A stretch of DNA of 64,000 bases, taken from positions 48,732,001-48,796,000 of the forward strand of contig JBMRGM010000040.1 in assembly GCA_052327205.1 (NCBI GenBank). Direction: 5' to 3'. Position numbers and translations under genes: made by a program. Under the pieces are notes generated by a model that worked only from the letters and a program-made list of their open reading frames with translations, searched no databases and was not told the DNA's origin. Below, piece by piece: positions 13,501 through 42,929 of the stretch. Source of the DNA: Somniosus microcephalus. Lineage: Eukaryota. Positions within the stretch are counted from its first letter, which is position 1. Each line of letters begins with the position of its first letter.

Positions 13501-13653
13501 CCGGTTGGTAATAAGTGTACGACTATAGACTCAACGGCTCATTCGGCTTCTGATCAGAGCGGGTGTTGTTGGTGGGCTTCGTGGTAGGGACCGTGGACTC
13601 TAACTGGGTCCATCTCCGGTCTACCACAGCCTAATTTGTGACTGGCCCATGTG
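10600..13653 (-). pseudogene. Retroviral pol pseudogene (RT, tether, RNase H, integrase)
   Basis: TWASHKLGCG; WPVQKPDESWRMTINY; FTALDIQNGF; LQAVGDILI (decayed LQYVDD); tether APALGLPD..RPVGYYS; RNase H MYVAGSS..IYTESQYA..KIRAH; integrase HEPAHLG, WLEAFP, IDSNQGTHF, QSSGMVERM. Confidence 0.93.
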
Positions 13654-16600
13654 AGAGAGTAAGTCTCACAAACTCACCCCCATGGTCCTTCCTCCGTCCA
13701 TGTGAGAGGGTAAGTCTCATAAAATCTCCCCAATGGTTCTTCCTGCCCCCATGTGAGAGTGTGTGTCTCACAAACTCTCCCCCATGGTCCTTCCTGCCCC
13801 CATGTGAGAGGGACAGTCTCACAAACTCTCCCCCATGTTCCTTCCTCCACCCATGTGAGAGGGTAAGTCTCATCAAATCTCCCCCGTGGTTCTTCCTGCC
13901 CCCATGTGAGAGGGTAAGGCTCACAAACTCTCACACATTGTCCTTCCTCCACCCATGTGAGAGGGTAAATCTCACAAACTCTACCCCATGGTCCTTCCTC
14001 CGCCCATGAGAGAGGGTAAGGCTCACAAACTCTCACACATTGTCCTTCCTCCACCCATGTGAGAGGGTAAATCTCACAAACTCTCCCCATGGTCCAGCCT
14101 CCGCCATGAGAGAGGGTATGTCTCACAAACACACCCATGGTCCTTCCTCCACCCATGTGAGAGGCTAAGCCTCACAAACGCTCCCCCATGGTCGTCCCCC
14201 GACCATGTGAGAGGGTAAATCTCGCAAACTCTACCCCATGGTCCTTCCTCCGCCCAAGTGAGAGGACAAGTCTCACAATCTTTCATCCTTGGTCCTTCCT
14301 CCGCCCATTTGAGAGGGTAATCTCACAAACACTCCCCATGGTCCTATCTCTGCCCATGTGAGAGGGTAAGCATCACCATCTCTCCCCCATGGTCCTTCCT
14401 CCGCCAATGTGAGAGGGTATGTCGCACAAAATCTCATCCATGGTCCTTCCTCCACCCATGTGAGAGGTTAGGCCTCACAAACTCTCCCCCATGGTCCTTC
14501 CACAGCCCGTGAGAGAGGGTAAGTCTCACAATTTCTCTCCATGGTCCTGCCTCCGCCCATGAGAGATGGCATGTCTCAAAAACACACCCATGGTCCTTCC
14601 TCCGCCCAGGTGAGAGGGTAAGCCTCACAAACTCTCCGCATGGTCCTTCCTCCCCCCTTGTGAGGGTAAGTCTCACAATCTCTCCCCCATGGTCTTCCTC
14701 TGCCCATGTGAGAGGGTAAGTCTCACAAACTCTCCCCCATGGTCTTCCTCTGCCCATGTGAGAGGGTAAGTCTCACAATCTATCCCCCATGGTCCTCCTC
14801 TGCCCATGTGAGAGGGTAAGCATCACCATCTCTCCCCCATGGTCCTTCCTCCGCAAAGTGAGAGTGTATGTCGCACAAAATCTCATCCATGGTCCTTCCT
14901 CCGCCCATGTGAGAGGGTAAGCATCACAAAATCTCCCCCATAGTCCTTCCTCACCTATGCGAGAGGATAAGTCTCGCAAACTGTCCCCCGTGGTCCTTCC
15001 TCCGCCCATGTGAGAGGGTAAGTCTCACAAACACTCCTCCATGGTCCTTCCTCCGCCCATGTGAGACGGTAAGTCTCACAAACTCTCCCATATGGTCCTT
15101 CCTCCGCCCATGTGAGAGGGTAATTCTCACAAACTCTCAAGCATGGTCCTTCCTCCGCCCATGTGATAGGGTAAGTCTCACAAACTCTCCCCCCTGGTCC
15201 TTCCTCTCCCCAATGGTCCTTCCTCCGCCCATGTGAGAGGATAAGTCTCACAAACTCTCCCCCATGGTCCTTCCTCCGTCCATGTGAGAGGGTAAGTCAC
15301 ACAAACTCTCCCCAATGGTCCTTCCTCCACCCATGTGAGAGGGTAAGTCACACAAACTCTCCCCCATGGTCCTTCCTCCACCCATGTGGAAGGTTAAGCC
15401 TCACAAACTGTCGCCCATGGTCCTTCCTCCACCCAAGTGAGAGGGTATATCTCAGACTCTCTCCACCATGGTCCTTCCTCCGCCCATGAAAGAGGGTGTG
15501 TCTCACAAACTTTCCCCCGTGGTCCTCCCTCCACCCATGCCAGATGGTAAGACTCACAAACTCCCCCCCATGGTCCTACCTCTCCCCATGTGAGAGGGTA
15601 AGTCTCACAAACTCTCCCCCATGGTCCTTCCTCTGCCCATCTGGGAGGGTAATTCTCACAAACTCTCCCCATGGTCCTTCCTCCGCCCATGTGAGAGGGT
15701 AAGTCTCACAAACTCTCCCACATGGTCCTTCCTCCGCCCATGTGAGAGGGAAAGTCTCACAAACTCTCCCCATGGGCCTTCCACCGCCCATGTGAAAGGG
15801 TAAGTCTCACAAACTCTGCCCAATGGACCTTCGTCCGCCATATGCCTCAGATATTCTCCCCATGATCCTTCCTCCCCCCATGTGAGAGGGTAAGTCTCAC
15901 AAACTATCCCCCATGGTCCTTCCTCCGCCCATGTGTGAGGGTAAGTCGCACAATCTCTCCGCCATGGTCCTTCCTCAACCCATGTGAGAGGGTAAGTCTC
16001 ACAAACTCTCCGCCATGGACCTTCCTCCCCCCAAGTGAGAGGGTAAGTCTCACAAACTCTCCCCCATGGTCCTTCCTCCGCCCATGTGAGAGGCTAAGTC
16101 TCACAAACTCTGCCCCATGGACCTTCGTCCACCCATGTGAGAGGCTAACTCACACAAACTCTCCCCCATGGTCCTTCCTCCGCCCATGTGATTGGGTAAG
16201 TCTCGCAAACTCTCCCACATGGTCCTTCCTCCGCCCATGTGAGAGGGAAAGTCTCACAAACTCTCCCCATGGGCCTTCCTCCGCCCATGTGAGAGGGTAA
16301 GTCTCGCCATCTCTCCCCCATTGTCCTTCCTCCACCCATGTGAGCGGGTCAGTCTCACAAACTCTCCCCCATGGTCCTTCCTCCGCCAATGTGAGAGGAT
16401 TAAGTCTCATAATCTCTCCCCCATTGTCCTTCCTCCGCCCATGTGAGAGGGTAAGTCTCACAAACTCACCCCATGGTCCTTACTCCGCCCATGTGAGAGG
16501 GTAAGCCTCACAGACTCACCCCAGGGTCCTTCCTCCGCCCATGTGAGAGGCTAAGTCTCAAAAAATCTCCAGCATGGTCCTTCCTCCCCCATGTGACAGG

Positions 16601-19600
16601 GTAAGTCTCACAAACTCTCCCCCATTGTCCTTCCTCCGCCCTTGTGAGAGGGTAAGTCTCACAAACTCTCCCCATGGTCCTTCCTCTGCCCATGTGAGAG
16701 GGTGAGTCTCATAAACTCTCCCGCACGGTCGTTCCTCTGCCGATGTGAGTGGGTAAGTCTCACAGACTCACCCATGGTCCTTCCTCTGCCCATGTGAGTG
16801 GGTCAGTCTCACAAACTCTCCACCATGGTCCTTCCTCTGCCCATGTGAGAGGGTAAGTCTCAAACACTCTCCCCCATGGTCCTTCCTCTGCCCATGTGAG
16901 AGGGTAAGTCTCACAAACACTCCCCCATGGTCCATCCTCCGCCCATGTGAGAGGGTAAGCCTCACAAACTCTCCACCATGGTCCTTCCTCCGCCCTTGTG
17001 AGAGGGTAAGCCTCAGAAACTCTCCTCCTTGGTCCATCCTCCTCCCATGTGAGAGGGTAAGTCTCACAAACTCTCCCCATGGTCCTTCCTCTGCCCATGT
17101 GAGAGGGTGAGTCTCACAAACACTCCCCCAAGATCCTTCCTCCGCCCATGTGAGAGGGTAAATCTCACAAACTCCCCCCATGGCCCTTCCTCTGCACATG
17201 TGAGTGGGTAAGTCTCAAAAACTCGCCCCCATGGTCCTTCCTCCGCCCATGTGAGAGCGTAAGTCTCACAAATTCCCCCCGTGTTCCTTCCTCTGACATT
17301 GTGAGAGGGTAAGTCTCACATCTCTCCCCCATGGTCCATCCTCCGCCCATGTGAGAGGGTAAGCCTCACATCTCTCCCCCATGGTCCATCCCCCGCCCAT
17401 GTGACAGGGTAAGTCTCACAAACTCTCCCGTATGTTCCTTCCTCCGCCCATGTGACAGGGAAAGTCTCAGAAACTCTCCCAGGTGGTCCTTCCTCCGCCG
17501 ATGAGAGAGGGTATGTCTCACAAACTCCCCCATGGTCCTTCCTCCGCCCATGTGAGAGAGTAAGTCTCACAAATTCTCCCCCGTGATCCTTCCTCCGAAT
17601 TTGGGAGAGGGTAAGTCTCACAAAATCTCCCTCATAGTCCATCCGCAGCCAATGTCAGAGGGTAAGTCCAGCAAACTCTCCCCCATTGTCCGTCCTCCAC
17701 CCATGTGAGAGGGTAAGTCTCGCCATCTCTCCCCCATTGTCCTTCCTCTGCCCATGTGAGAGGGTCAGTCTCACAAACTCTCCCCCATGGTCCTTCCTCC
17801 GCCAATGTGAGAGGTTTAAGTCTCATAATCTCGCCCCCATTGTCCTTCCTCCGCCCATGTGAGAGGGTAAGTCTCACAAACTCTCCCCCCTGGTCCTTCC
17901 TCTCCCCAATGGTCCTTCCTCCGCCCATGTGAGAGGATAAGTCTCACAAACTCTCCCCCATGGTCCTTCCTCCGTCCATGTGAGAGGGTAAGTCACACAA
18001 ACTCTCCCCAATGGTCCTTCCTCCACCCATGTGAGAGGGTAAGTCACACAAACTCTCCCCCATGGTCCTTCCTCCACCCATGTGGAAGGTTAAGCCTCAC
18101 AAACTGTCGCCCATGGTCCTTCCTCCACCCAAGTGAGAGGGTATATCTCAGACTCTCTCCACCATGGTCCTTCCTCCGCCCATGAAAGAGGGTGTGTCGC
18201 ACAAACTTTCCCCCGTGGTCCTCCCTCCACCCATGCCAGATGGTAAGACTCACAAACTCCCCCCCATGGTCCTACCTCTCCCCATGTGAGAGGGTAAGTC
18301 TCACAAACTCTCCCCCATGGTCCTTCCTCTGCCCATCTGGGAGGGTAATTCTCACAAACTCTCCCCATGGTCCTTCCTCCGCCCATGTGAGAGGGTAAGT
18401 CTCGCAAACTCTCCCACATGGTCCTTCCTCCGCCCATGTGAGAGGGAAAGTCTCACAAACTCTCCCCCATGGTCCTTACTCCGCCCATGTGAGAGGGTAA
18501 GCCTCACAGACTCACCCCAGGGTCCTTCCTCCGCCCATGTGAGAGGCTAAGTCTCACAAAATCTCCAGCATGGTCCTTCCTCCCCCATGTGACAGGGTAA
18601 GTCTCACAAACTCTCCCCCATTGTCCTTCCTCCGCCATTGTGAGAGGGTAAGTCTCACAAACTCTCCCCATGGTCCTTCCTCTGCCCATGTGAGAGGGTG
18701 AGTCTCATAAACTCTCCCGCACGGTCGTTCCTCTGCCGATGTGAGTGGGTAAGTCTCACAGACTCACCCATGGTCCTTCCTCTGCCCATGTGAGAGGGTA
18801 AGCCTCACAAACTCTCCACCATGGTCCTTCCTCTGCCCATGTGAGAGGGTAAGTCTCAAACACTCTCCCCCATGGTCCTTCCTCTGCCCATGTGAGAGGG
18901 TAAGTCTCACAAACACTCCCCCATGGTCCATCCTCCGCCCATGTGAGAGGGTAAGCCTCACAAACTCTCCACCATGGTCCTTCCTCCGCCCTTGTGAGAG
19001 GGTAAGCCTCAGAAACTCTCCTCCTTGGTCCATCCTCCTCCCATGTGAGAGGGTAAGTCTCACAAACTCTCCCCATGGTCCTTCCTCTGCCCATGTGAGA
19101 GGGTGAGTCTCACAAACACTCCCCCAAGATCCTTCCTCCGCCCATGTGAGAGGGTAAATCTCACAAACTCCCCCCATGGCCCTTCCTCTGCACATGTGAG
19201 TGGGTAAGTCTCAAAAACTCGCCCCCATGGTCCTTCCTCCGCCCATGTGAGAGCGTAAGTCTCACAAATTCCCCCCGTGTTCCTTCCTCTGACATTGTGA
19301 GAGGGTAAGTCTCACATCTCTCCCCCATGGTCCATCCTCCGCCCATGTGAGAGGGTAAGCCTCACATCTCTCCCCCATGGTCCATCCCCCACCCATGTGA
19401 CAGGGTAAGTCTCACAAACTCTCACGTATGTTCCTTCCTCCGCCCATGTGACAGGGAAAGTCTCAGAAACTCTCCCAGGTGGTCCTTCCTCCGCCGATGA
19501 GAGAGGGTATGTCTCACAAACTCCCCCATGGTCCTTCCTCCGCCCATGTGAGAGAGTAAGTCTCACAAATTCTCCCCCGTGATCCTTCCTCCGAATTTGG

Positions 19601-22600
19601 GAGAGGGTAAGTCTCACAAAATCTCCCTCATAGTCCATCCGCAGCCAATGTCAGAGGGTAAGTCCAGCAAACTCTCCCCCATTGTCCGTCCTCCACCCAT
19701 GTGAGAGGGTAAGTCTCGCCATCTCTCCCCCATTGTCCTTCCTCTGCCCATGTGAGAGGGTCAGTCTCACAAACTCTCCCCCATGGTCCTTCCTCCGCCA
19801 ATGTGAGAGGTTTAAGTCTCATAATCTCGCCCCCATTGTCCTTCCTCCGCCCATGTGAGAGGGTAAGTCTCACAAACTCTCCCCCCTGGTCCTTCCTCTC
19901 CCCAATGGTCCTTCCTCCGCCCATGTGAGAGGATAAGTCTCACAAACTCTCCCCCATGGTCCTTCCTCCGTCCATGTGAGAGGGTAAGTCACACAAACTC
20001 TCCCCAATGGTCCTTCCTCCACCCATGTGAGAGGGTAAGTCACACAAACTCTCCCCCATGGTCCTTCCTCCACCCATGTGGAAGGTTAAGCCTCACAAAC
20101 TGTCGCCCATGGTCCTTCCTCCACCCAAGTGAGAGGGTATATCTCAGACTCTCTCCACCATGGTCCTTCCTCCGCCCATGAAAGAGGGTGTGTCTCACAA
20201 ACTTTCCCCCGTGGTCCTCCCTCCACCCATGCCAGATGGTAAGACTCACAAACTCCCCCCCATGGTCCTACCTCTCCCCATGTGAGAGGGTAAGTCTCAC
20301 AAACTCTCCCCCATGGTCCTTCCTCTGCCCATCTGGGAGGGTAATTCTCACAAACTCTCCCCATGGTCCTTCCTCCGCCCATGTGAGAGGGTAAGTCTCG
20401 CAAACTCTCCCACATGGTCCTTCCTCCGCCCATGTGAGAGGGAAAGTCTCACAAACTCTCCCCATGGGCCTTCCACCGCCCATGTGAAAGGGTAAGTCTC
20501 ACAAACTCTGCCCAATGGACCTTCGTCCGCCCATATGCCTCAGATATTCTCCCCATGATCCTTCCTCCCCCCATGTGAGAGGGTAAGTCTCACAAACTAT
20601 CCCCCATGGTCCTTCCTCCGCCCATGTGTGAGGGTAAGTCGCACAATCTCTCCGCCATGGTCCTTCCTCAACCCATGTGAGAGGGTAAGTCTCACAAACT
20701 CTCCGCCATGGACCTTCCTCCCCCCAAGTGAGAGGGTAAGTCTCACAAACTCTCCCCCATGGTCCTTCCTCCGCCCATGTGAGAGGCTAAGTCTCACAAA
20801 CTCTGCCCCATGGACCTTCGTCCACCCATGTGAGAGGCTAACTCACACAAACTCTCCCCCATGGTCCTTCCTCCGCCCATGTGATTGGGTAAGTCTCGCA
20901 AACTCTCCCACATGGTCCTTCCTCCGCCCATGTGAGAGGGAAAGTCTCACAAACTCTCCCCATGGGCCTTCCTCCGCCCATGTGAGAGGGTAAGTCTCGC
21001 CATCTCTCCCCCACTGTCCTTCCTCCACCCATGTGAGCGGGTCAGTCTCACAAACTCTCCCCCATGGTCTTTCCTCCGCCAATGTGAGAGGTTTAAGTCT
21101 CATAATCTCTCCCCCATTGTCCTTCCTCCGCCCATGTGAGAGGGTAAGTCTCACAAACTCTCCCCCATGGTCCTTACTCCGCCCATGTGAGAGGGTAAGC
21201 CTCACAGACTCACCCCAGGGTCCTTCCTCCGCCCATGTGAGAGGCTAAGTCTCACAAAATCTCCAGCATGGTCCTTCCTCCCCCATGTGACAGGGTAAGT
21301 CTCACAAACTCTCCCCCATTGTCCTTCCTCCGCCCTTGTGAGAGGGTAAGTCTCACAAACTCTCCCCATGGTCCTTCCTCTGCCCATGTGAGAGGGTGAG
21401 TCTCATAAACTCTCCCGCACGGTCGTTCCTCTGCCGATGTGAGTGGGTAAGTCTCACAGACTCACCCATGGTCCTTCCTCTGCCCATGTGAGAGGGTAAG
21501 CCTCACAAACTCTCCACCATGGTCCTTCCTCTGCCCATGTGAGAGGGTAAGTCTCAAACACTCTCCCCCATGGTCCTTCCTCTGCCCATGTGAGAGGGTA
21601 AGTCTCACAAACACTCCCCCATGGTCCATCCTCCGCCCATGTGAGAGGGTAAGCCTCACAAACTCTCCACCATGGTCCTTCCTCCGCCCTTGTGAGAGGG
21701 TAAGCCTCAGAAACTCTCCTCCTTGGTCCATCCTCCTCCCATGTGAGAGGGTAAGTCTCACAAACTCTCCCCATGGTCCTTCCTCTGCCCATGTGAGAGG
21801 GTGAGTCTCACAAACACTCCCCCAAGATCCTTCCTCCGCCCATGTGAGAGGGTAAATCTCACAAACTCCCCCCATGGCCCTTCCTCTGCACATGTGAGTG
21901 GGTAAGTCTCAAAAACTCGCCCCCATGGTCCTTCCTCCGCCCATGTGAGAGCGTAAGTCTCACAAATTCCCCCCGTGTTCCTTCCTCTGACATTGTGAGA
22001 GGGTAAGTCTCACATCTCTCCCCCATGGTCCATCCTCCGCCCATGTGAGAGGGTAAGCCTCACATCTCTCCCCCATGGTCCATCCCCCGCCCATGTGACA
22101 GGGTAAGTCTCACAAACTCTCACGTATGTTCCTTCCTCCGCCCATGTGACAGGGAAAGTCTCAGAAACTCTCCCAGGTGGTCCTTCCTCCGCCGATGAGA
22201 GAGGGTATGTCTCACAAACTCCCCCATGGTCCTTCCTCCGCCCATGTGAGAGAGTAAGTCTCACAAATTCTCCCCCGTGATCCTTCCTCCGAATTTGGGA
22301 GAGGGTAAGTCTCACAAAATCTCCCTCATAGTCCATCCGCAGCCAATGTCAGAGGGTAAGTCCAGCAAACTCTCCCCCATTGTCCGTCCTCCACCCATGT
22401 GAGAGGGTAAGTCTCGCCATCTCTCCCCCATTGTCCTTCCTCTGCCCATGTGAGAGGGTCAGTCTCACAAACTCTCCCCCATGGTCCTTCCTCCGCCAAT
22501 GTGAGAGGTTTAAGTCTCATAATCTCGCCCCCATTGTCCTTCCTCCGCCCATGTGAGAGGGTAAGTCTCACAAACTCTCCCCCCTGGTCCTTCCTCTCCC

Positions 22601-25600
22601 CAATGGTCCTTCCTCCGCCCATGTGAGAGGATAAGTCTCACAAACTCTCCCCCATGGTCCTTCCTCCGTCCATGTGAGAGGGTAAGTCACACAAACTCTC
22701 CCCAATGGTCCTTCCTCCACCCATGTGAGAGGGTAAGTCACACAAACTCTCCCCCATGGTCCTTCCTCCACCCATGTGGAAGGTTAAGCCTCACAAACTG
22801 TCGCCCATGGTCCTTCCTCCACCCAAGTGAGAGGGTATATCTCAGACTCTCTCCACCATGGTCCTTCCTCCGCCCATGAAAGAGGGTGTGTCTCACAAAC
22901 TTTCCCCCGTGGTCCTCCCTCCACCCATGCCAGATGGTAAGACTCACAAACTCCCCCCCATGGTCCTACCTCTCCCCATGTGAGAGGGTAAGTCTCACAA
23001 ACTCTCCCCCATGGTCCTTCCTCTGCCCATCTGGGAGGGTAATTCTCACAAACTCTCCCCATGGTCCTTCCTCCGCCCATGTGAGAGGGTAAGTCTCGCA
23101 AACTCTCCCACATGGTCCTTCCTCCGCCCATGTGAGAGGGAAAGTCTCACAAACTCTCCCCATGGGCCTTCCACCGCCCATGTGAAAGGGTAAGTCTCAC
23201 AAACTCTGCCCAATGGACCTTCGTCCGCCCATATGCCTCAGATATTCTCCCCATGATCCTTCCTCCCCCCATGTGAGAGGGTAAGTCTCACAAACTATCC
23301 CCCATGGTCCTTCCTCCGCCCATGTGTGAGGGTAAGTCGCACAATCTCTCCGCCATGGTCCTTCCTCAACCCATGTGAGAGGGTAAGTCTCACAAACTCT
23401 CCGCCATGGACCTTCCTCCCCCCAAGTGAGAGGGTAAGTCTCACAAACTCTCCCCCATGGTCCTTCCTCCGCCCATGTGAGAGGCTAAGTCTCACAAACT
23501 CTGCCCCATGGACCTTCGTCCACCCATGTGAGAGGCTAACTCACACAAACTCTCCCCCATGGTCCTTCCTCCGCCCATGTGATTGGGTAAGTCTCGCAAA
23601 CTCTCCCACATGGTCCTTCCTCCGCCCATGTGAGAGGGAAAGTCTCACAAACTCTCCCCATGGGCCTTCCTCCGCCCATGTGAGAGGGTAAGTCTCGCCA
23701 TCTCTCCCCCACTGTCCTTCCTCCACCCATGTGAGCGGGTCAGTCTCACAAACTCTCCCCCATGGTCTTTCCTCCGCCAATGTGAGAGGTTTAAGTCTCA
23801 TAATCTCTCCCCCATTGTCCTTCCTCCGCCCATGTGAGAGGGTAAGTCTCACAAACTCTCCCCCATGGTCCTTACTCCGCCCATGTGAGAGGGTAAGCCT
23901 CACAGACTCACCCCAGGGTCCTTCCTCCGCCCATGTGAGAGGCTAAGTCTCACAAAATCTCCAGCATGGTCCTTCCTCCCCCATGTGACAGGGTAAGTCT
24001 CACAAACTCTCCCCCATTGTCCTTCCTCCGCCCTTGTGAGAGGGTAAGTCTCACAAACTCTCCCCATGGTCCTTCCTCTGCCCATGTGAGAGGGTGAGTC
24101 TCATAAACTCTCCCGCACGGTCGTTCCTCTGCCGATGTGAGTGGGTAAGTCTCACAGACTCACCCATGGTCCTTCCTCTGCCCATGTGAGAGGGTAAGCC
24201 TCACAAACTCTCCACCATGGTCCTTCCTCTGCCCATGTGAGAGGGTAAGTCTCAAACACTCTCCCCCATGGTCCTTCCTCTGCCCATGTGAGAGGGTAAG
24301 TCTCACAAACACTCCCCCATGGTCCATCCTCCGCCCATGTGAGAGGGTAAGCCTCACAAACTCTCCACCATGGTCCTTCCTCCGCCCTTGTGAGAGGGTA
24401 AGCCTCAGAAACTCTCCTCCTTGGTCCATCCTCCTCCCATGTGAGAGGGTAAGTCTCACAAACTCTCCCCATGGTCCTTCCTCTGCCCATGTGAGAGGGT
24501 GAGTCTCACAAACACTCCCCCAAGATCCTTCCTCCGCCCATGTGAGAGGGTAAATCTCACAAACTCCCCCCATGGCCCTTCCTCTGCACATGTGAGTGGG
24601 TAAGTCTCAAAAACTCGCCCCCATGGTCCTTCCTCCGCCCATGTGAGAGCGTAAGTCTCACAAATTCCCCCCGTGTTCCTTCCTCTGACATTGTGAGAGG
24701 GTAAGTCTCACATCTCTCCCCCATGGTCCATCCTCCGCCCATGTGAGAGGGTAAGCCTCACATCTCTCCCCCATGGTCCATCCCCCGCCCATGTGACAGG
24801 GTAAGTCTCACAAACTCTCACGTATGTTCCTTCCTCCGCCCATGTGACAGGGAAAGTCTCAGAAACTCTCCCAGGTGGTCCTTCCTCCGCCGATGAGAGA
24901 GGGTATGTCTCACAAACTCCCCCATGGTCCTTCCTCCGCCCATGTGAGAGAGTAAGTCTCACAAATTCTCCCCCGTGATCCTTCCTCCGAATTTGGGAGA
25001 GGGTAAGTCTCACAAAATCTCCCTCATAGTCCATCCGCAGCCAATGTCAGAGGGTAAGTCCAGCAAACTCTCCCCCATTGTCCGTCCTCCACCCATGTGA
25101 GAGGGTAAGTCTCGCCATCTCTCCCCCATTGTCCTTCCTCTGCCCATGTGAGAGGGTCAGTCTCACAAACTCTCCCCCATGGTCCTTCCTCCACCAATGT
25201 GAGAGGTTTAAGTCTCATAATCTCGCCCCCATTGTCCTTCCTCCGCCCATGTGAGAGGGTAAGTCTCACAAACTCTCCCCCATGGTCCTTCCTCTGCCCA
25301 TGTGAGACAGTAAGTCTCATAAACTCTCCCGCACGGTCGTTCCTCTGCCGATGTGAGTGGGTAAGTCTCACAAACTCTCCCCATGGTCCTTCCTCTGCCC
25401 ATGAGAGAGGGTTAGTCTCATAAACTCTCCCGCACGGTCGTTCCTCTGCCGATGTGAGTGGGTAAGTCTCACAGACTCACCCACGGTCCTTCCTCTGCCC
25501 ATGTGAGAGGGTCAGTCTCACAAACTCTCCCCCATGGTCCTTCCTCTGCCCATGTGAGAGGGTAAGTCTCACAAACACTCCCCCATGGTCCTTCCTCCGC

Positions 25601-28600: not shown

Positions 28601-28707
28601 CCCATGGTCCTCCCTCTGCCCATGCGAGAGGGTAAGCCTCAAAGGCTCACCCCCATGATCATTCCTCCACCCATGAGAGAGGTTAAGTCTCACAAACTCT
28701 CACCCAT
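13645..28707. repeat. 51-bp tandem satellite, left block (~295 monomers)
   Basis: Consensus CCCATGTGAGAGGGTAAGTCTCACAAACTCTCCCCCATGGTCCTTCCTCCG, head-to-tail, with diverged monomers. Confidence 0.99.
15185..25272. repeat. Higher-order repeat of ~2.7 kb (~53 monomers), 4 copies, one lacking ~0.7 kb
   Basis: The variant marker CTCTCCCCCCTGGTCCTTCCTCTCCCCAATGG occurs at 15185, 17881, 19877 and 22575 (spacings 2696, 1996, 2698). Identical spurious ORFs recur at the same periods. Confidence 0.93.
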
Positions 28708-29492
28708 TGTAATGTATATACCTTTAAGGAGGGAACTATTTTTTACAGCTCATGTATACTGCAGTACCGGCAGTGACCACACCTGTATATAACTCTGAGT
28801 AGTAATCTGTACAGATCAGTTGCAGTGTGAGCAAAGTTAAGTAAACACCTGTTGTACCGTTCTCTGCAGTCTGTGTCTTATTATACACGGACGCAATATT
28901 GGCGACGAGGCAGGTTCGAACCTATCTGCAACTCTGCATCACCTCCCGGGGATTCGTTCCTGGAGATCAGTGGATTGGAGGTGAAGGCCAGAGAATTGGG
29001 CGTCGACCAAGGGCAACCTCCCAGTCATCCAGCAGAGACTCGAGAATTGCAGGGGAGGCTGTCGAGAGCCAGGCTTGGCTTTCCAGTCGAGGTGGTCCAG
29101 CGAAACGGGCTGGCAACAGGTAGTGCACAGACCCTTCCCGGACAGTGGCGGGCTAGAACCCGACCAAGCACACAGCAAAGGGCCGAGCAGCATCGACGAG
29201 GTAGAGAGAGAGAGAGGGCAGAGCGCACAGGGCGCAGCCAGGGTTCAGTGGCCGAGCAGCGTCGGAGAGAGGGAGAGAGAGCCGCACAGAAACCCGCGAG
29301 ACGCCGCCATTGCCATGAGGACTGCCGAGCGCGGCGTTGGCAGCAGTGCAGGAGAAGCGCACAAAACCTACAGGGCGGCGCCATTGCCACGAGAACCGCC
29401 GGGAGCGGTGTTGGCAGCAGCAGGGGAGGAAGGAAAACGCGGGAGACGCCATTTTAAGCCATTGGGAGACGCCATTTTAAACCACACCCAAA

Positions 29493-32400: not shown

Positions 32401-33445
32401 ATGAAAAGCCTAGCCAGGGCTAATGTGTGGTGGCCGGGAATCGATAAACAAATCGAGGACCTGAACAAGAGCTGCTCCGGATGCCAGATAGTGCAAAATG
32501 CACCACCACAGGCCCCTCTACACCCATGGGAGTGGCCCTCATCTCCATGGCAACGACTGCATATTGATTTTGCTGGTCCATTCATGGGCTCAATGTTTTT
32601 AATAGCCTTGGATGCGCACTCGAAATGGCTTAAAGGTATTCAAGATGTCCGCCACCACCACGGAGAGAACTATTGCAGTCCTACAGACCATCTTTGCCAG
32701 GAATGGCTAGCCAGAACAGATTTGCTCCGACAACGGACTACAGTTTGTGGCCGAAGATTTCCAGAGGTTCTTGAAAAAGAATGGGGTAAGGCATTATACA
32801 TCCGCCCCGTATCATCCAGCCACAAATGGATTGGCTGAGAGGTTCGTACAAACCTTTAAGAAGGCAATAAAGGCTATGTACAATGACAACATTCCACTGC
32901 AGCACAAGGTGGACAATTTCCTGTTCGCCTACTGGAATGCGACACATGCAGTCACCAACCAGGCCCCAGCCATGATGTTCTTTAACCGAAGGTTAAGATC
33001 TCGCCTGGATTTGCTCAGACCAAACGTACGAAGAGATTTTGAAAGTAAGCAACTCCAGTACATCCATGAGAAGCCAACAAGGAGCTTCAATGTTGGTGAA
33101 CCAGTCTTGGCCCACGATTACCGAACAGAGAAATGGCAGCCAGGAACGATATGCACACGGCAGGGCCGACTAATGTACACAGTGGACGTTGGGGAGAGCA
33201 TCGTGAGACGCCATGCTGAACAGATCATAGAGTCACAGGAACAAATCAACCACATGCCTCATCCATACGTACCTGGTGAAGAACCCAACGTACAGGTCGC
33301 ATCTAACCCAGAAAAAGCAGCATCGGAAGCTGATGAACCAACCGACGACAGGGGGCCAGAATCGCCTCCACACCAAGAGCAAGACACTCGGGAAAGGCGC
33401 TATCCAGAAAGGATAAGGAAGACTCCCCAAAGACTGAATATATAA
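29493..33445 (+). pseudogene. gag-pol of Gypsy element A (frameshifted, stops)
   Basis: Double CCHC (CYRCG..H..C; CRQCGKVGHIARVC), protease LDTGS, RT WATPI..CYLDNILV, RNase H CDASPYG, integrase HEGH..C..C, HIDFAGPF, GLAERFV. Confidence 0.93.
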
Positions 33446-33568
33446 ATAGACTACTTTCAGCTCATGTTGCATGTTAAAAGTGTTAATTGTAATTAGTTTG
33501 ATAGTTAATTGTTAAATGAGTGTTATGTTACTGCTAATCTAAAAGGAGAGGATTTGTAATGTATATAC

Positions 33569-36500
33569 TGTAGTGTATGTACCTTTAAGAGCCCCTGTGT
33601 ACTGTAATGCCGGTAGTGACCACTCGGGTATATAAGCCTGTATAGCATCTTGTATCTTTTAGTTCACCTCCAGACTTTGTTCAGTAAACACCTGTTAAAC
33701 CAACTCCTGCATTCCGTGTCTCCATTAACACACGGATACAACAGTGGCGACGAATTGGAAACGGAAGTACCTGCAATTCGGCAGCACCTCAAGGAGATCG
33801 ATTCCTCAGACGAAGGTCGAAGAAAAATAAGAAAAAAAGAAAAAACTGTGGTTTCACCAGCTAGCCGGGCTGGTGGCAGGTACTGCACTAATTCTTCCTG
33901 GGTGGCAGGCTGGGGCTCGATCGGCTGGCTCTGCAGCGGGGCCGAGCAGCGAAGGCGGAGGCAAACAGAGATGGAGGGTGGAGCACTCGGGAGACGGCCG
34001 GCGCTGCAAAGCAGGTCGGCATTCGGACCAAGCAGAGGGAGGGAAAAGTCCCAGAGAGTCCGGCGGGAACGAGTCTCCAACTATTAAAAATATCTGTGTA
34101 AATAAAAACCACAGAGAACAGCGTTGTCAGCAGCGGCAGCGGCGGGAAAGCGCGGGAGCGCCATTTTTTCTCATCGGGGAAGAAAGGAAAGTGCGGGAGG
34201 CGCCATTGTTGATTTTCAGGATGCCTAAAACTGGCAATATTACTGCTTTCGATAGTGATATAGAGGATTGGACCACATATGTGGAAAGTGTGGAGGTATA
34301 TTGCACAGCGAATGAAGTAGAGGATGTTAAAAAGGCATAGGTACTTCTAGATCTGATGGGTGCAAGGACATACGGGCTGTTACAAAACTTAATCACTCCA
34401 GCCAAACCGATGGACAAGAATTTTAAGCAGATTGTTGATACCCTACAGGAGCACTTCAACCCAACACCGCTGCTGATAGCGGAACAATTCAAATTCTTCA
34501 GGAGAAATCAGCACAAGAATGAAAGTAATGCTGATTACATCGCCGAATTAAGAAAGCTGCCAAAGCACTGCCAATTCGGGGCAGGACTGGCAGATTCTCG
34601 ACGAGACAAATTGGTCTGCGGTCTCCTAAGTGAAGGAACACAGAAAAGGCAACTTTCTGAGCAAGATTTGACACTGGACAAGGCTTTCAGTGTGGCTGTA
34701 TCATACAAAGCAGCAGCAAGAGGAGCTGCAGAGATACAGCAAAAGCCACAGGACTTCGGCACCCATGAAATGACACGGGGTTTCGAGAGATGTTATCGCT
34801 GCAGCAGATCCACCCATGACCAGAGGGACTGCTGGTTCAAGGACAAAGCATGCTGCCAATGCGGAAAGATGGGATACATTGCACGTGTATGCTGATCTGG
34901 AAACAAAAAATCCACTGACAGAAAAAAAATCAACAAGGAAAAGTACCGAAAGGTACAAATGATGATGGACAGTAGCTCCGAAGACCAGAAGAGTGATAGC
35001 GACTCCGGAAACAAGAGACTAAGCTGTCTCAAATTACATAATGTAATTGCCAAAGAAGATTACCGGACCATTTGGGTTACCCTCACGATAGCGGGGTCCC
35101 CAGTTAAAATGGAGCGAGATACAGGATCAGCTCTGACCGTCATATGTCGTTGGATTACAAGCGGCTATTTCCGCATATACCTTTGAAAGACATATCCATT
35201 ATCTTGAAGACATATACGGGGCAGAAAGTATACCCCAGAGGGAAAATAAGGGTGCCTGTTGTATACAACGGCAAGGAAATACAGAAGTTGTATTTATACG
35301 TTCTGCAAGATGGTGGTCCACTGCTGTTGGGACGTGAATGGATCAGGAAGATACGTTTAGACTGGCACTCCATTCAGGCACTGACGGTGACCAGTAAGAA
35401 AATAAATGATGATGACGTCATACCTGAACGATTAAAAGACATCTTGGCCAACGCCAGAGAAGTGTTTCAACAGGAACTAGGAACCGTGAAAGGCATTACC
35501 ACCTCAATAAAAGGGAAGATGCGGCAATTCCCAAGTTTTTTAATGCAAGGCCGGTGCCATACGCAATTCGTCCTGCAGTCGAGGCAGAGCTGGAGAATTT
35601 GGAAAAGGCAGGCATGTTATCCAAGGTAGATTGGAGCGAGTGGGCAACACCCATCATCCCGGTCATGAAGAAAATGTTGAATAATGATAAATCTGAAGAA
35701 CAGAGAAAAATTCGCATCTGTGGGGACTTCAAGGTGACTGTAAACCCGGTCCTTCACACGGTACAGTATCCTCTTCCGAGAATAGAAGATATTTTCGCCT
35801 CACTATCCGGAGGGAAACGTTTCACCAAAATTGACTTCGCACAGGCATATCTACAGATGGAGGTTGAGGAGACCTCTAAAAAGTATCTCACGATAAAGAC
35901 ACACAAAGGCCTGTACCAGTACAATCGACTGGTTTTCGGAGTAGCATCAGCTCCAGCTATCTGGCAAAGAGCTATGGAGCAAGTCCTGCAAGGTATTCCG
36001 GGGACTCAATGTTATTAATCGCTGGTGATGCACACTCCAAGTGGCCAGAGGTAATCAAGATGTCCTCCATCACCACGGAAAAAACGATCACAGTATTAAG
36101 GGCCACATTTGCCAGGAATGGGCTCCCTGAACAGACCTGTTCTGATAATGGACCGCTATTTGTGTCCGAAGATTTCAGGAAGTTCTTAAAAAACAATGGG
36201 GTTAAGCACTACACGTCCGCCCCATACCATCCCGCCAACAATGGATTGGCTGAAAGGTTTGTCCAGACCTTCAAGGAGGCCATAAAGGTCATGAGTATTG
36301 AAGACATAAATCTACAACAATAGGTAGATAACTTCTTGTTTGCGTACAGGAATGCAACACATGTGGTTACAAACCAAACTCCCGCCATTATGCTTTTCAA
36401 TAGAAGGCTAAGTTGCCGGCTGGATTTGATTAAGCCATACATCAGAAGGGACGTAGAGAACCGGCAATTTCAAGGCATGAATGAAAGGCCAACTAGAACC

Positions 36501-37151
36501 TGTCAGATAGGTCAACAAGTTTTGGCCCGGGACTACCGTACAGAGAAATGGCAGCCTGGAACAATTTGCACACGACTAGGACCGCTGATGTATACCGTGG
36601 ACATTGGTGAAAGCATAATAAGGTGCCATGCTGACCAGATCATACAGTCATCCGAAAAGGGACAACCTACACCACAACTCTATACGCCTAATGATGAAGC
36701 AGAGATACCCATAGCATCTACCTCCGATCCGGTGATACTGGAACCAGATTAACCCGACACTGGCATTCAAGCCGAATCGACCTTGCCAAAAGAACCTACG
36801 ACACCACCGAAAACTACGACACCACTGAGGCGTTATCCGGTCTGAGTCAGAAAGCCTCCAGAGAGACTGAACTATAATTGATTAACTGCAGGAAATGTGT
36901 AGATTATTGTTCTTGTAATCATGTTAATTAATTATTACTTAAAATTATATGTACTAATTAACTAAAAGGGGAGGAATTGTAGTGTATGTACCCTTAAGAG
37001 CCCTGTGCACTGTAATACCGGTAGTGACCACTCGGTTATATAAGCCTGTATAGCGTCTTGTATCTTTTAGTTCACCTCCAGACTTTGTTCAGTAAACACC
37101 TGTTAAACCAACTCCTGTATTCCATTTCTCCATTAACACACGGATACAACA
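33569..37151 (+). mobile_element. Gypsy (Mag-like) element B nested in the 3'LTR of element A; internally deleted
   Basis: LTRs 33569-33743 and 36978-37151 (TGTAGT...ACAACA); PBS TGGCGACGA at 33745; PPT AAAAGGGGAGGAA; TSD TATAC at 33564-33568 and 37152-37156. Confidence 0.96.
34221..36877 (+). pseudogene. gag-pol of Gypsy element B, lacking RT C-terminus, RNase H and integrase N-terminus
   Basis: Homologous to element A. The RT segment GIPGTQCY is joined directly to integrase LIAGDAHSKWPE near 36015. Confidence 0.92.
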
Positions 37152-37333
37152 TATACCTTTGTGGAAGGAACTATTTATTACAGCTCATAAATACTGTAGT
37201 ACCGGCAGTGTCCACACCTGTATATAACACTGAGTAGTAATCTGTACAGATCAGTTGCAGTGTGAGCCACGTTGAGTAAACACCTGTTGTACAGTTCTCC
37301 GCAGTCTGTGTCTTATTATACATGGACGTAACA

Positions 37334-40300
37334 CCCATGGTCCTTCCTCCGCCCATGTGAGAGGGTAAGTCTCACAAACGCTCCCCCATGGTCCATCCTC
37401 TGCTCATGTGAGAGGGTAAGGCTGAAAAACATCCCCCATGGCCTTCCTCCGCCCATGTGAGAGGATAATCTCACAAACTCTCTGCCATGGTCCATCCTCC
37501 GCCCATGTGAGAGGGTAAGTCTCACAATTTCTCCGCCATCGTCCTTCCTCCACCCAAGTGAGAGGATAATTCTCACAAACTCTCGCCCATGGTCCTTCCT
37601 CTGCCCATGTGAGAGGGTAAGCCTCACAAACACTCCCCCATGGTCCTTCCTCCGCCCATCTGAGAGGGGAAGTCTCACCAACTCTCCCCCATGGTCCTTC
37701 CACCGCCCATGTGAGAGGGTAAGTCTCACAAACTCTCCCCCATGGTCCTCCCTCTGCCCATGTGAGAGGGTAAGTCTCACAAACTCTCCCCCATGGTCCT
37801 TCCTCTGCCCATGTCAGAGGGTAAGTCTCACACACTCTACCCCATGGTCCTTCCTCCACCCATGTGAGAGGGTAAGTCTCACCAACTCTCCCCCATGGTC
37901 CTTCCACTGCCCATGTGAGAGGGTAAGTCTCACAAACTCTCCCCCATGGTCCTTCCTCCGACCATGTGAGAGGGTAAGTCTCACAAACTTTCCCCCATGG
38001 TCCTTCCTCCGCCCATGTGAGAATGTAAGACTCACAAACTCGCCCCCATGGTCCTTCCTCCCGCCATGTGAGAATTTAAGCCTCACAAAAGCTTCCCCAT
38101 GGTCCTTCCTCCGCCCAAGTGAGAGGATAAGTCTGACAAACACTCCCCAATGGTCCCATCCTTCGCCCATGTGAGAGGGTAAGTCTCACAAACTCTCCCC
38201 ATGGTCCTTCCTCCGCCCATGAGAGAGGGTTCGTCTCACAAACTCTCCCGCACGGTCGTTCCTCTGCCGATGTGAGTGGGTAAGTCTCACAGACTCACCC
38301 ATGGTCCTTCCTCCACCCATGTGAGTGGGTAAGCCTCACAAACTCTCCCCATGGTCCTTCCTCTGCCCATGTGAGAGGGTCAGTCTCACAAACTCTCCCC
38401 CATGGTCCTTCCTCTGCCCATGTGAGAGGGTAAGTCTCAAACACTCTCCCCCATGGCCCTTCCTCAGCCCATGTGAGAGGGTAAGTCTCACAAACACTCC
38501 CCCATAGTCCATCCTTCGGCAATGTGAGAGGGTAAGCCTCACAAACTCTCCCCCATGCTCCTTCCTCCGCCCATGTGAGTGGGTAAGCCTCACAAACTCT
38601 CCCCATGGTCCTTCCTCTGCCCATGTGAGAGGGTCAGTCTTACAAACTCTCCCCCATGGTACTTCCTCTGCCCATGTGAGAGGGTAAGTCTCACACACTC
38701 TCCCCCATGGTCCTTCCTCTGCTCATGTGAGAGGGTAAGTCTCACAAACACTCCCCCATGGTCCATCCTCCGCCCATGTGAGAGGGTAAGCCTCACAAAC
38801 TCTCCACCTTGCTCCTTCCTCCGCCCTTGTGAGAGGGTAAGCCTCACAAACTCTCCTCCTTGGTCCTTCCTCCTCCCATGTGAGAGGGTAAGTCTCACAA
38901 ACTCTCCCCCAAGATCCTTCCTCCGCCCATGTGAGAGGGTAAGTCTCACAAACTCTCCCCCATGGTCCTTCCTCTGCCCATGTGAGAGGGTGAGTCTCAC
39001 AAACCTTCCCCCAAGGTCCTTCCTCCGCCCATGTGAGAGGGTAAGTCTCACAAACGCTCCCCCATGGTCCTTCCTCCGCCCATGTGAGAGGGTAAGTCTC
39101 ACAAACTCTCCCCCTTGGTCCTTCCTCCGCCCATGTGAGAGGGTAAGTCTCACAAACGCTCCCCCATGGTCCTTCCTCCGCCCATGTGAGAGGGTAAGTC
39201 TCACAAACTCTCCTCCTTGGTCCTTCCTCCTCCCATGTGAGAGGGTAAGTCTCACAAACTCTCCCCCAAGATCCTTCCTCCGCCCATGTGAGAGGGTAAG
39301 TCTCACAAACTCTCCCCCATGGTCCTTCCTCTGCCCATGTGAGAGGGTGAGTCTCACAAACACTCCCCCAAGATCCTTCCTCCGCCCATGTGAGAGCATA
39401 AGTCTCACAAATTCCCCCCGTGGTCCTTCCTCTGACATTGTGAGAGGGTAAGTCTCACATCTCTCCCCCATGGTCCATCCTCCCCCCATGTGACAGGGTA
39501 AGTCTCACAAACTCTCACGTATGTTCCTTCCTCCACTCATTTGACAGGGAAAGTCTCAGAAACTCTCCCAGGTGGTCCTTCCTCCGCCCACGTGACAGGG
39601 TATGTCTCACAATCTCTCCCCCATGGTCCTTCCTCCGCCCATGTGAGAGGGTAAGTCTCACAAACTCTCCCCCATGGTCCTTCCTCTGCCCATGTGAGAG
39701 GATAAGTCTCACAAACACTTCCCCATGGTCCTTCCTCCAACCATGTGAGAGGGTAAGCCTCACAAACTCTCCCCCATGGTCCTTCCTCCACCCACGTGAG
39801 AAGGTAATCTCAGAAACACTCCCCCATGGTCCTTCCTCCGCCGATGAGAGAGGGTATGTCTCACAAACTCACTCATGGTCCTTCCTCCGCCCATGTGCCA
39901 GGGAATGTCTCAGAAACTCTCCCAGGTGGTCCTTCCTCCGCCCACGTGACAGGGTATGTCTCACAATCTCTCCCCCATGGTCCTTCCTCCGCCCATGTGA
40001 GAGCGTAAGTCTCACAAACTCTCACCCATGGTCCATTCTCCGCCCATGTGAGAGGGTAAGTCTCACAATCTACCCCCATGGTCCTTCCTCCTCCCACATG
40101 AGAGGGTAATTCTCACAAACTCTCCCCGATGGTCCGTCCTCCACCCATGTGAGAGAGTAAGTCTCACAAACACTCCAACATGTTCCTTTCTACGCCCATG
40201 TGAGAGGGTAAGTCTCACAAATGCTCCCCCATGGTCCTTCCTCCGCCCATGTGAGAGGATCAGCAGCACAAATTCTCCCCCATGGTCCTTCCTCCGCCCA

Positions 40301-41272
40301 TGTGAGAGGGTAAGTCCCACAAACTCTCCCCCATGGCCCTTTCTCCGCCCATGTGAGAGGATAAGTCTCACAAACTCTCCCCCATGATCCTTCCTCCGCC
40401 CATGTGAGAGCGTAATTCCCACAAACTCTCCCCCTTGGTCCTTCCTCCGCCCATGTGAGAGGGTAAGTCTCGCAAACTCTCCCCCATGGTCCCTCCTCCG
40501 CCCATGTGAGAGGGTAAGCCTCACAATCTCTCCCATATGGTCCTTTTTCCGCCCATGTGAGAATGTAAGTCTCACAAACTCTCCCCCATGGTCCTTCCTC
40601 CCCCCATGAGCGAGGGTATGTCTCAAAAACTCTCCCCATGGTCCTTCCTCCCCCCATGTGAGAGGGTTAGTCTCACAAACTCTCCCCCATGGTTGTTCTT
40701 CCTCCCATGAGGGAGGGTAAGTCTCACAAACTCTCCCCCACGTTCCTTCCTCCGCACATGTTAGAGGGTAAGTCTGACAAACTCTCACCCATGGTCCTTC
40801 CTCCGCCCATGTGAGAGGGTAAGTCTCACAAACTCTCCCCCATGTTCCTTCCTCCGCCAATGTGAGAGGTTATGTCTCACACACTCTCCCCCATGGTCCT
40901 TCCTCCACCCATGGGAGAGCGTAAGTCTCACAAACACTCTCCCATGGTCCATCCTCCGCCCATGTGAGAGGGTAAATCTCACAAACTCTCCCCCATGCTC
41001 CTTCCTCCGACCCTGTGAGTGGATAAGTCTCATAGGCTCGCCCCCATGGTCCTTCCTCCGCCCAAATGAATGGGTAAGTATCACAAACTCTCCCCCGTGG
41101 TCGTTCCTCCGCCATTGTGAGAGGGTAAGTCTCACAAACTGTCCCCCATGGTCCTTTCACCGCCCATGTGAGAGGATAAGTCTCAGAAACTCTCCCCTAT
41201 GGTCCTTCCTCCGCCCAGCTGAGAGGTTAAGTCTCACAAACTCTCCCCCTTGGTCCTTCCTCCGCCCATGTG
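37334..41272. repeat. 51-bp tandem satellite, right block (~77 monomers)
   Basis: Same monomer and orientation as the left block. Resumes at the TSD of Gypsy A. Confidence 0.99.
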
Positions 41273-42143
41273 CATATAACTGGGCGGAGGGCTTGTACTC
41301 TGCATTGTCGATCTTTATATTCCTTAAAGGGAAATCTCCCCCCTTGGGGCTCCCCTAATATTCTAATAAACCATAGAGGGACGTTTCACCTCGATAATAT
41401 CTTTTATGCCTTGTATGGCCATATTAAAGTGTCGGGCAGCACTTCGTTTTTTTGCCGACACCTCTACATTGGGATTGTGTCTTTTGAGGTCGGGAATGAG
41501 AAGGATGATGCTGGATCTCTCCTGGGGTGTAAAAGGCTGTGCCTCGCCCATCGTACCCCGTCCACCTCTATCTGGATTTTGGGCTCCTACCGCCTGGTTA
41601 TCTCTGACGGGGGCCACGGGATTGGATTTTTCGGCCCCTGACTGAAGCGTTAAGTGGGTTGGGTGGTCTCAACTCATAGAACTTCTACAGTCCCCGACCG
41701 GGGCCTGGGATTTAAGGTCGATGTATCTCGAGTCTCTTTTTGTAGAGCATCGACAATGTCACCCAAGCATTTTAAGTTGTCTAGATTCTCAGTCCCTGGT
41801 GGCTTCAGGTGCAGGAGACTACGGAACTGGACTTTAGCCTCCTGCACGGGTCTCAAGATTTCTTGTAACAGGGCCGGTCTCCCCCCCGCCCCTCGCCCAC
41901 AATTATGGTTCCCATCTGATCCATCCAACTAGCACACAAAACCGCCCCGTAATAGGCTTGTTTGGCGTCCTTGTGTTCCTCCCGCCACTTTATTTGGTCA
42001 ACTACTGGGCTTGTTTCTTTCCACCCATTTTTAATCATCTCACTTTGAAATTTCAAATTAGCCTCTCGGACCCATGGAACAAGAGTGACAATGGTGGACA
42101 AAGCTGGAACATCCGGTGAAGGAGGTCTCCCCTCTTCACCCAT
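41273..42143 (-). pseudogene. Retroviral gag pseudogene (N-terminal part)
   Basis: First ATG-initiated frames downstream of the PBS and leader (MGEEGRPPSP..., ...AQPFTPQERSSIILLIPDL...). The call rests mainly on position. Frameshifted. Confidence 0.65.
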
Positions 42144-42454
42144 GTGACCTCTGTTAATTGTTATGTATATTCTTATACTCTATCGGCACAAACGTATCAC
42201 CTTATACTCTAAGTCAGAAATATACATTTATGCCTAATCAACTCCGTCAGTCCACAGTCTCCATGAGGAATAATTTACTATGTGGGTAATTTAATACTGA
42301 CTGGCCCATACACTGTTTTAGCCCCACTGGTGAACGAGCGTGTCCTTGTTACTCCTAAAAACCTTACTCTGACTTCTTCCCTTAGGACGCGATGCGGTTC
42401 TCGCCTCAGTCATCAATTCCAGTGTTGTTTAACTCCGATGGTACTTAGTGCAGT

Positions 42455-42472
42455 ATCCCACTTCTGACACCA
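42455..42472 (-). promoter_or_regulatory. Primer-binding site for tRNA-Leu(CAA)
   Basis: Minus strand TGGTGTCAGAAGTGGGAT is an 18-nt complement of the vertebrate tRNA-Leu 3' end ATCCCACTTCTGACACCA, 2 nt after the LTR end ...CTAACA. Confidence 0.9.
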
Positions 42473-42474
42473 AC

Positions 42475-42873: not shown

Positions 42874-42929
42874 ATGTTCATATTTAAATCAAATTGCCAA
42901 AAATGTGCACATTCAATTAAACTATGAAC

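What the first reader, a model, noticed from the sequence alone, without database searches (positions are those of the whole stretch)
13645..41290. A ~19-kb satellite born from 51 bp of a retroviral pol gene, with its birth site preserved
Seen: both ends of the array carry the same 9-mer GCCCATGTG (13645-13653 and 41264-41272). On the minus strand the monomer reads WGRVCETYPLTWAEEGP. Upstream ERV sequence enters in this frame (...RVQALRPVICTWAEEGP). The array exits in the same frame into pol (...VCETYSLTWASHKLGCGRPEMDPVRVHGP...NSLFWPVQKPDESWRM). Known: a P-x-x-W-A-x-H-K-x-D-(C/V)-G-like motif precedes RT in fish and other non-mammalian retroviral pol proteins, and here its first half is supplied by the monomer itself. 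Inference: the ancestral provirus had one 17-codon segment flanked by two CACATGGGC microhomologies, and that segment was amplified about 370-fold in place. This would be a rare, fully traceable de novo origin of satellite DNA from viral coding sequence.
Basis: partly seen in the sequence, partly recalled or inferred. Interest (0 to 1): 0.9.

Follow-up and report, generated by a model that had tools for sequence, protein, structure and literature searches.

The report
Satellite DNA born from retroviral pol
A 51-base piece of an old retrovirus's reverse-transcriptase gene has grown into tandem arrays of four to several hundred copies at dozens of places in this animal genome while other copies of the virus keep it once, so a satellite's origin can be traced step by step; it was likely born once and then spread, and this window is only one of its many duplicates.

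Summary
Confirmed: 373 units of 51 bp (13645-28707, 37334-41272; 19.0 kb), split by an 8.6-kb nested Gypsy insertion, lie inside a decayed provirus. The unit is native pol: 30 of 30 paralogs found with a single-unit query carry it once and in frame, bounded by an Ala-Trp-Ala microhomology. A 47%-identical database protein keeps the motif. A related organism has the virus but shows no array signal, while two others have the array. Not confirmed: a unique preserved birth site. The window is one of at least 29 segmental duplicates, its provirus lacks ~1 kb just upstream of the array, and arrays of 4-5, 5-11, 22-25 and 75+ units sit on at least five different pol backbones ~15% apart. All share the same commonest letter at 51 of 51 columns, with a three-letter signature seen in 0 of 14 single-unit copies. 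Three lineages swap their halves at or near the array. Best reading: one microhomology-guided duplication, growth by unequal exchange, spread by segmental duplication and ectopic recombination. The kind is known (TE-derived repeats); the retroviral coding origin and the full ladder of stages are unusually clear.

The parts
13645..28707 (-). 51-bp array, left block (~296 units), with kb-scale higher-order copies (offsets 1996 and 2698 bp, 97-99.5% alike)
37334..41272 (-). 51-bp array, right block (~77 units)
13645..13653 (-). 3' boundary microhomology (pol sense), Thr-Trp-Ala codons leading into RT
41264..41272 (-). 5' boundary microhomology (pol sense)
28708..37333 (+). Gypsy-type LTR retrotransposon inserted into the array (LTRs ~91% alike, target duplication CCCAT), with a second element nested in it at ~33570-37150 (LTRs ~95% alike)
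10700..13644 (-). decayed pol: RT, RNase H, integrase zinc finger and core, broken by stops and frameshifts
   Evidence: family RT closest to foamy-virus and MLV RT in PDB (with paralog L137)
6745..10600 (-). 3' part of the provirus (env-like position, function not tested), interrupted by a LINE-like piece at ~7770-9280; no 3' LTR in the window
41273..41357 (-). ~85-bp remnant of the protease end / linker; ~1.05-kb deletion just upstream of it
41366..42454 (-). leader and 5' part of gag-like region
42455..42472 (-). primer-binding-site-like TGGTGTCAGAAGTGGGAT (match to tRNA-Leu recalled, not tested)
42474..42878 (-). 5' LTR, lacking its first ~290 bp

Best explanation
The array is a tandem repeat of 17 codons from the start of an endogenous retrovirus's reverse transcriptase, which other copies of the virus carry once; it was likely born once by slippage between two 8-9-base Ala-Trp-Ala repeats 51 bases apart, and likely grew and spread inside the chromosomes afterwards. 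Steps: (1) origin from native pol (shown). (2) One founding duplication in a copy with three signature letters that make a perfect 7-bp inverted repeat inside the unit (shared unit shown; single birth and a role of the hairpin inferred). (3) Early passage of the young array to paralogous proviruses by ectopic crossover or conversion at the repeat (chimeric halves shown; the direction inferred). (4) Locus-wise growth by unequal exchange, later in 2.0- and 2.7-kb blocks (block copies shown). (5) Recent segmental duplication of the whole provirus-plus-array block at least 29 times on contigs C40/C39, and Gypsy insertion (shown). No function is indicated: most likely selfish, neutral heterochromatic DNA.
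For: Single in-frame unit in 30 of 30 loci, in outgroup L152, and at protein level in P0001, aligned WAEEGPWGKVWEAYPLAWATHKLDCG to WKKEGLVGLLCQALPQVWATGKQDCG. Ladder of 4-5 (B), 5-11 (F, G), 22-25 (C), 75+ (E) and 90 to ~370 counted units (D; spans 4.8-48.4 kb at 27 paired loci). The commonest letter is identical at 51/51 columns among 6 arrays of 5 lineages; the signature A at unit column 31 stands in 0 of 14 single-unit copies. Arrays of different lineages share no runs of variants beyond shuffles, so the transfer was early. C/F/G: protease side and 5' LTR belong to another subfamily (100/100 with L152-154), while RT side and C's 3' LTR are main family. G/H differ from C/F, and E from D, in the 3' half while sharing the 5' half and host flank. 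D copies share host flanks at 96-99%. Organisms B and C show 100- to 300-fold higher contig depth on the repeat than on pol; organism D has pol and one unit with the single-unit letter, and depth falls to ~0 past it.
Against: The pol tree is a star. Monophyly of array-bearing backbones is rejected only modestly (p-AU 0.017), which fits recombination, viral-phase origin or repeated birth alike. Unit divergence from the column mode (5.5-9.5%) equals the proviruses' age (7-9% root to tip), so a few units may already have been present at integration. Chimerism is not confined to array-bearing copies: single-unit L041 has 5' and 3' LTRs that differ by a ~140-bp indel. Microhomologies of 8 bases or more at 30-100 bp spacing are common (8 per ~5 kb in two proviruses), so they do not explain why this one grew. 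Hairpin energies overlap between arrays (mean -3.1 to -4.5 kcal/mol) and single units (0 to -5.1). One search's query was a single-unit copy, so its 30/30 shows that such copies exist, not how common they are. Absence in organism D rests on contigs.
Confidence: 0.62

Rival explanations
1. Viral-phase repeat: the duplication arose by reverse-transcriptase template switching at the microhomology, a few-unit virus or defective element integrated at several sites, and only some copies later grew large (as for Ogre 3'UTR repeats or LTR12).
For: Identical commonest unit on backbones ~15% apart; unit divergence about equal to provirus age; no shared variants between lineages; the three signature changes all keep a stem in RNA (inference).
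Against: C/F/G have 5' and 3' LTRs of different subfamilies, which a single integration cannot give. E ends in a single-unit-type last unit and shares only its 5' half with D. Two of the three signature changes are at CpG sites, typical of host methylation decay (established knowledge).
Confidence: 0.22
2. Repeated independent birth: a viral sub-lineage already had the hairpin-perfect unit, and each of its integrations duplicated it on its own.
For: Array-bearing backbones not monophyletic (p-AU 0.017); C, F and G arrays expanded separately; a perfect 7-bp stem occurs in only ~2% of 60-nt provirus windows.
Against: No single-unit copy with the signature: among 71 junction-pattern hits, every signature-bearing type that I fetched was multi-unit (not all 71 were fetched). 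Folding energy does not separate the classes.
Confidence: 0.11
3. One reading: this window is the one birth site, amplified ~370-fold in place.
For: The window's lineage (D) has the most diverged units (9.4%) and 9/9 boundary 9-mers, so it is a fair candidate for the founding lineage.
Against: At least 29 copies at 96-100% with shared host flanks; other backbones carry the same unit; the window's upstream flank has a deletion that sister lineage E partly lacks.
Confidence: 0.04
4. An older host satellite inserted into the provirus, and the coding match is chance.
For: Some arrays have an ERV flank on one side only and abut other satellites.
Against: The unit is in-frame pol in outgroup copies and in a distant protein; every array fetched has at least one ERV flank; listed exact matches start on C39/C40.
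Confidence: 0.01

Closest known systems
Minisatellites flanked by short direct repeats (Haber and Louis model, as summarised in PMC3389668 section 3.4; original not read)
   Same: 5-20-bp direct repeats bound the repeated segment, and slippage or unequal exchange adds copies; ERV internal sequence is a known source of tandem repeats in human.
   Different: Here the single-copy state with both repeats survives in dozens of paralogs, arrays reach tens of kb with higher-order blocks, and the source is RT coding sequence.
Ogre LTR-retrotransposon-derived satellites of Lathyrus sativus (PMC7004042; abstract and Discussion read)
   Same: Short arrays inside an LTR element, various stages of expansion, a few loci grown long.
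   Different: Those arrays lie in the 3'UTR and are spread by transposition; here the unit is pol coding sequence in a vertebrate ERV and the spread seen is by segmental duplication and crossover.
TE-ORF-related satellites (chicken HinfI/CR1 ORF2, Phodopus PROsat/L1 ORF2, rye gag; PMC9659126 section 2.2 and table passages read)
   Same: Satellite sequence drawn from a retroelement reading frame.
   Different: Those are reported as similarity to ORF fragments; the passages read list no retroviral pol case (the Ctenomys retroviral case is LTR-derived).
Snowy-owl ERV1-like centromeric satellite (10.1101/2024.07.05.602039; abstract and passages) and OwlRep (PMC5765563; abstract)
   Same: Vertebrate satellite linked to an ERV; OwlRep shows segmental duplication plus tandem amplification traced across species.
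   Different: The owl satellite holds no ERV gene and its seeding is stated as uncertain; OwlRep derives from HSAT6, not viral coding sequence. This array is far smaller (order of 0.5 Mb) and no centromere role is shown.

Membership tests
Endogenous retrovirus | LTR and primer-binding site | tested here: met
   Partial 5' LTR and PBS-like site in the window; paired LTRs in paralogs
Endogenous retrovirus | pol order PR-RT-RNaseH-IN with retroviral-type RT | tested here: met
   Pfam RT, RNase H, integrase in that order; best PDB hits foamy-virus and MLV RT; protease DTG motif read by eye in paralog L041
Endogenous retrovirus | env gene; genus-level placement | tested here: inconclusive
   A post-integrase region exists, but the one ORF scanned had no Pfam hit; no reference tree built
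Direct-repeat-flanked (Haber-Louis) minisatellite | Short direct repeats at both array ends, one unit apart in the unexpanded state | tested here: met
Satellite DNA | Long head-to-tail arrays, higher-order repeats | tested here: met
   15-kb and 4-kb blocks; 2.0/2.7-kb block copies
Satellite DNA | Heterochromatic or centromeric location | not testable with these tools
   Needs FISH or CENP-A ChIP
Satellite DNA | Spread free of the parent element | tested here: inconclusive
   All arrays fetched keep at least one ERV flank; only the first 100 of 1100 and 100 of 237 exact matches were listed
Ogre-type transposon-borne repeat | Array in a non-coding UTR | tested here: not met
   The unit is pol coding sequence
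Ogre-type transposon-borne repeat | Array dispersed by retrotransposition | tested here: inconclusive
   D and C/F/G copies share host flanks (duplication); no target duplication could be read for B, D or C

The most novel reading that the evidence does not exclude
A 17-codon piece of retroviral reverse transcriptase became a self-spreading satellite: born once, it is break-prone and invades the single-unit site of paralogous proviruses (even a 78%-alike subfamily) by recombination at the repeat. One genome thus preserves every stage from one unit to tens of kilobases, and related species date the birth.
Probability: 0.4. Interest if true: 0.75.

Novelty: new variant of a known kind. Interest (0 to 1): 0.58.

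Why it matters
The origin of a satellite monomer can rarely be shown because the source is lost. Here the source codons, the microhomology, single-unit relatives, intermediate arrays, giant arrays and a species without the array signal are all at hand. This makes long-standing models of satellite birth (slippage at short repeats, unequal exchange, spread between loci, viral versus chromosomal phase) testable on one family. It also shows old proviruses swapping halves at a repeat.

Tried and rejected
The repeat peptide found no database protein (5098 candidates, none at E<=0.001). Shared-variant runs between B, C, F, G and D/E arrays were not above shuffles; the positive controls D-D and E-E were. 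Hairpin folding energy did not separate array units from single units. Target-site duplications could not be read, because LTR ends are lost or mixed. A tight regular expression for the pre-RT motif hit only 3 of 25 relatives; by eye about 9 show a W/F-x-x-x-K/H-x-D-C/T-G-like stretch. Expression: no RNA holder listed; 88 reads from 16.7 million records of one RNA run lay mostly on the repeat, nearly all under 95% alike, too few to call transcription. One search's feature columns were mis-indexed and redone; one search's script ended in an error after its tables; one search's megablast printed no blocks and was redone. No earlier scan findings. Eight literature searches (listings only unless named) showed no retroviral-pol-derived satellite; subscription journals are not covered, and supplements were not read. 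PMC1461170 was not held.
Full report
Observation. The window is G000:C40:48732001-48796000 in a 6.4-Gb genome. TRF finds period 51 at 13645-28707 (295.8 copies) and 37334-41272 (77.5 copies), 19,002 bp. Between them lies a Gypsy-type LTR element at 28708-37333 with TG..CA ends, a CCCAT target duplication, LTRs 91% alike and a second element nested inside; it inserted into an existing array. GCCCATGTG ends both sides, but it is the unit's own boundary (182 copies inside, 0 outside). The left block holds 2.0- and 2.7-kb block copies at 97-99.5%.

Surroundings. On the minus strand: partial 5' LTR (42474-42878), a PBS-like site, leader and 5' gag, an ~85-bp protease-end remnant, the array, then decayed RT, RNase H and integrase. 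About 1.05 kb is missing ~80 bp upstream of the array relative to natural copy L161. The family's RT is closest to foamy-virus and MLV RT among solved structures; one database relative is named as a Heterodontus protein by its source.

The unit is native pol. Loci L041/L042 carry one unit in frame between protease and RT. A search with that stretch gave 40 full-length hits; the 30 fetched all have 60 bp (51 + 9) between the anchors, with end 9-mers 9/9 alike in 6 and 5-7/9 in 24 (the query favours single-unit copies, and many hits are duplicates of a few insertions). The microhomology is the Ala-Trp-Ala codon repeat. The 78%-alike outgroup L152 has one unit. P0001, 47% identical over the RT query, aligns through the unit and the following DCG motif. 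This refutes an older host satellite.

The window is not a unique birth site. The pol flank has 29 copies at 96-100% among 40 listed; 20 of 20 fetched have the array at the same junction, as do 20 of 20 gag-side loci. They share host flanks at 96-99%, so they are segmental duplicates (lineage D). Pairing ends gives 27 of 28 pol ends a partner, with spans of 4.8-48.4 kb, 632 kb in all, inserts included. Other lineages: B, 4-5 units (9 loci, 3 more); F, 5, 5 and 11; G, 9-10; C, 22-25; E, 75 or more; and a truncated H. Exact 32-mer and 56-mer matches number 1100 and 237; the first 100 listed lie on C39 and C40. Five of the ten extra stretches fetched belong to arrays that keep an ERV flank on one side only; four of these abut other satellites.

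Relations. Pol trees (62 rows, four short rows dropped; 23 rows; 16 rows) are star-like: D, E, B, C+F and G+H are separate branches ~15% apart, and holding array-bearing rows together is rejected at p-AU 0.017. Yet the commonest letter is the same at 51 of 51 columns among six arrays of five lineages. Three columns (27, 31, 43) differ from single-unit copies and together make a perfect 7-bp inverted repeat; column 31 has the array letter in 0 of 14 single-unit copies. The junction CpG decays both ways in the arrays while columns 27 and 43 do not, so the signature is a founder's. Units differ from the column mode by 5.5-9.5%, about the proviruses' age, and different lineages share no variant runs. 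The unit thus has one source and reached the backbones early.

Swaps at the array. C, F and G share a host flank (86-89%, tRNA genes nearby). Their protease side groups with the outgroup subfamily (100/100) while their RT side is main family, and C's 3' LTR is main type whereas its 5' LTR is ~70% alike. G's RT side is not C/F's. E shares its 5' LTR (93%), leader (89%) and host flank with D but has another pol half and ends in a single-unit-type last unit. A provirus integrates with identical LTRs (established knowledge), so these are chromosomal chimeras. Against over-reading: single-unit L041 also has unlike LTRs.

Other organisms. Four of 14 listed runs were laid on 12900-13900 at 85% likeness. 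Organisms B and C show repeat depth of ~1-4 x 10^5 and ~2-8 x 10^3 at peak bins against ~10^3 and ~20-90 on pol, and contigs 96-97% alike across the junction. Organism D has pol (depth ~20-180), one unit with the single-unit letter at column 31, and depth near zero beyond it. Contigs show presence better than absence, and B is from the same study as the best holder, so this polarity is good but not final.

Mechanism. Shown: coding origin, microhomology, ladder of sizes, shared unit, chimeric halves, block copies, segmental duplication, Gypsy insertion. Inferred: one founding slippage (hairpin help unproven: energies overlap; microhomologies are common; a 7-bp stem is in ~2% of windows), early spread by ectopic exchange, growth by unequal exchange. 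I put this at 0.62, a viral-phase cassette at 0.22 and repeated birth at 0.11. The origin from pol itself I put above 0.95.

Known work. TE-derived tandem repeats with short flanking direct repeats are described, and ERVs are a frequent source in human (PMC3389668, passages and section 3.4). Staged expansion inside LTR elements is shown for Ogre 3'UTR repeats (PMC7004042, abstract and Discussion). ORF-related satellites are listed for CR1, L1 and gag (PMC9659126, section 2.2 and passages). An ERV1-like owl satellite lacks ERV genes (10.1101/2024.07.05.602039, abstract and passages). OwlRep is traced from HSAT6 (PMC5765563, abstract). Eight searches listed no retroviral-pol case; the library lacks most subscription papers and supplements were not read.

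Verdict. Real, and the origin is shown; the 'preserved birth site' is not, and is replaced by a richer multi-locus record. New variant of a known kind; interest 0.58.

Noticed in passing
L150, L151, L155, L156, L157, L159, L160, L177 (C5, C39, C40): An unrelated ~54-bp AT-rich satellite lies beside these provirus copies; in L155, L156/157, L159 and L177 it follows the LTR end in nearly the same register although the copies are ~15% apart (one old insertion, or target preference).
   Followed up: partly
L185, L187, L193 (at ~3240-3480 or equivalent); L191: One-sided 51-bp arrays run directly into a 26-bp satellite (three loci) or a 74-bp satellite (one locus).
   Followed up: partly
L190:6097-10000: An array whose gag side is gone joins sequence 99.8% alike to window 54762-58665, a very recent rearrangement.
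   Followed up: no
window 700-6755: 28S rRNA fragment (4621-4787, Rfam) beside a LINE-like element (by eye) and 27-/206-bp repeats that replace the provirus's 3' end; shared with L112 and L176 only among D copies seen.
   Followed up: partly
L147, L148, L163, L100 upstream flanks: C/F/G proviruses sit in tandemly repeated DNA with tRNA genes; L163's truncated array is fused to a tRNA-like sequence.
   Followed up: partly
L041 and L096 (C36): 5' and 3' LTRs of one single-unit provirus differ by a ~140-bp indel; both LTR forms occur across the family.
   Followed up: partly
C40, places: Single-unit and 4-5-unit proviruses recur about 43-46 kb apart, and several D pol ends have an inverted gag copy ~12 kb away: large repeated blocks across C40 20-53 Mb.
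   Followed up: no
window 43449-44522, 49300-52850, 54950-58424: By eye: a GIY-YIG (Penelope-like) piece with 67-bp inverted ends, a Harbinger-like transposon with a 54-bp repeat, and another Gypsy element (LTRs 92% alike); names recalled, not tested.
   Followed up: no
C5:322944701 and many small contigs: A protease-RT fragment with one unit recurs identically on at least 20 contigs, embedded in the 54-bp satellite in L155.
   Followed up: no
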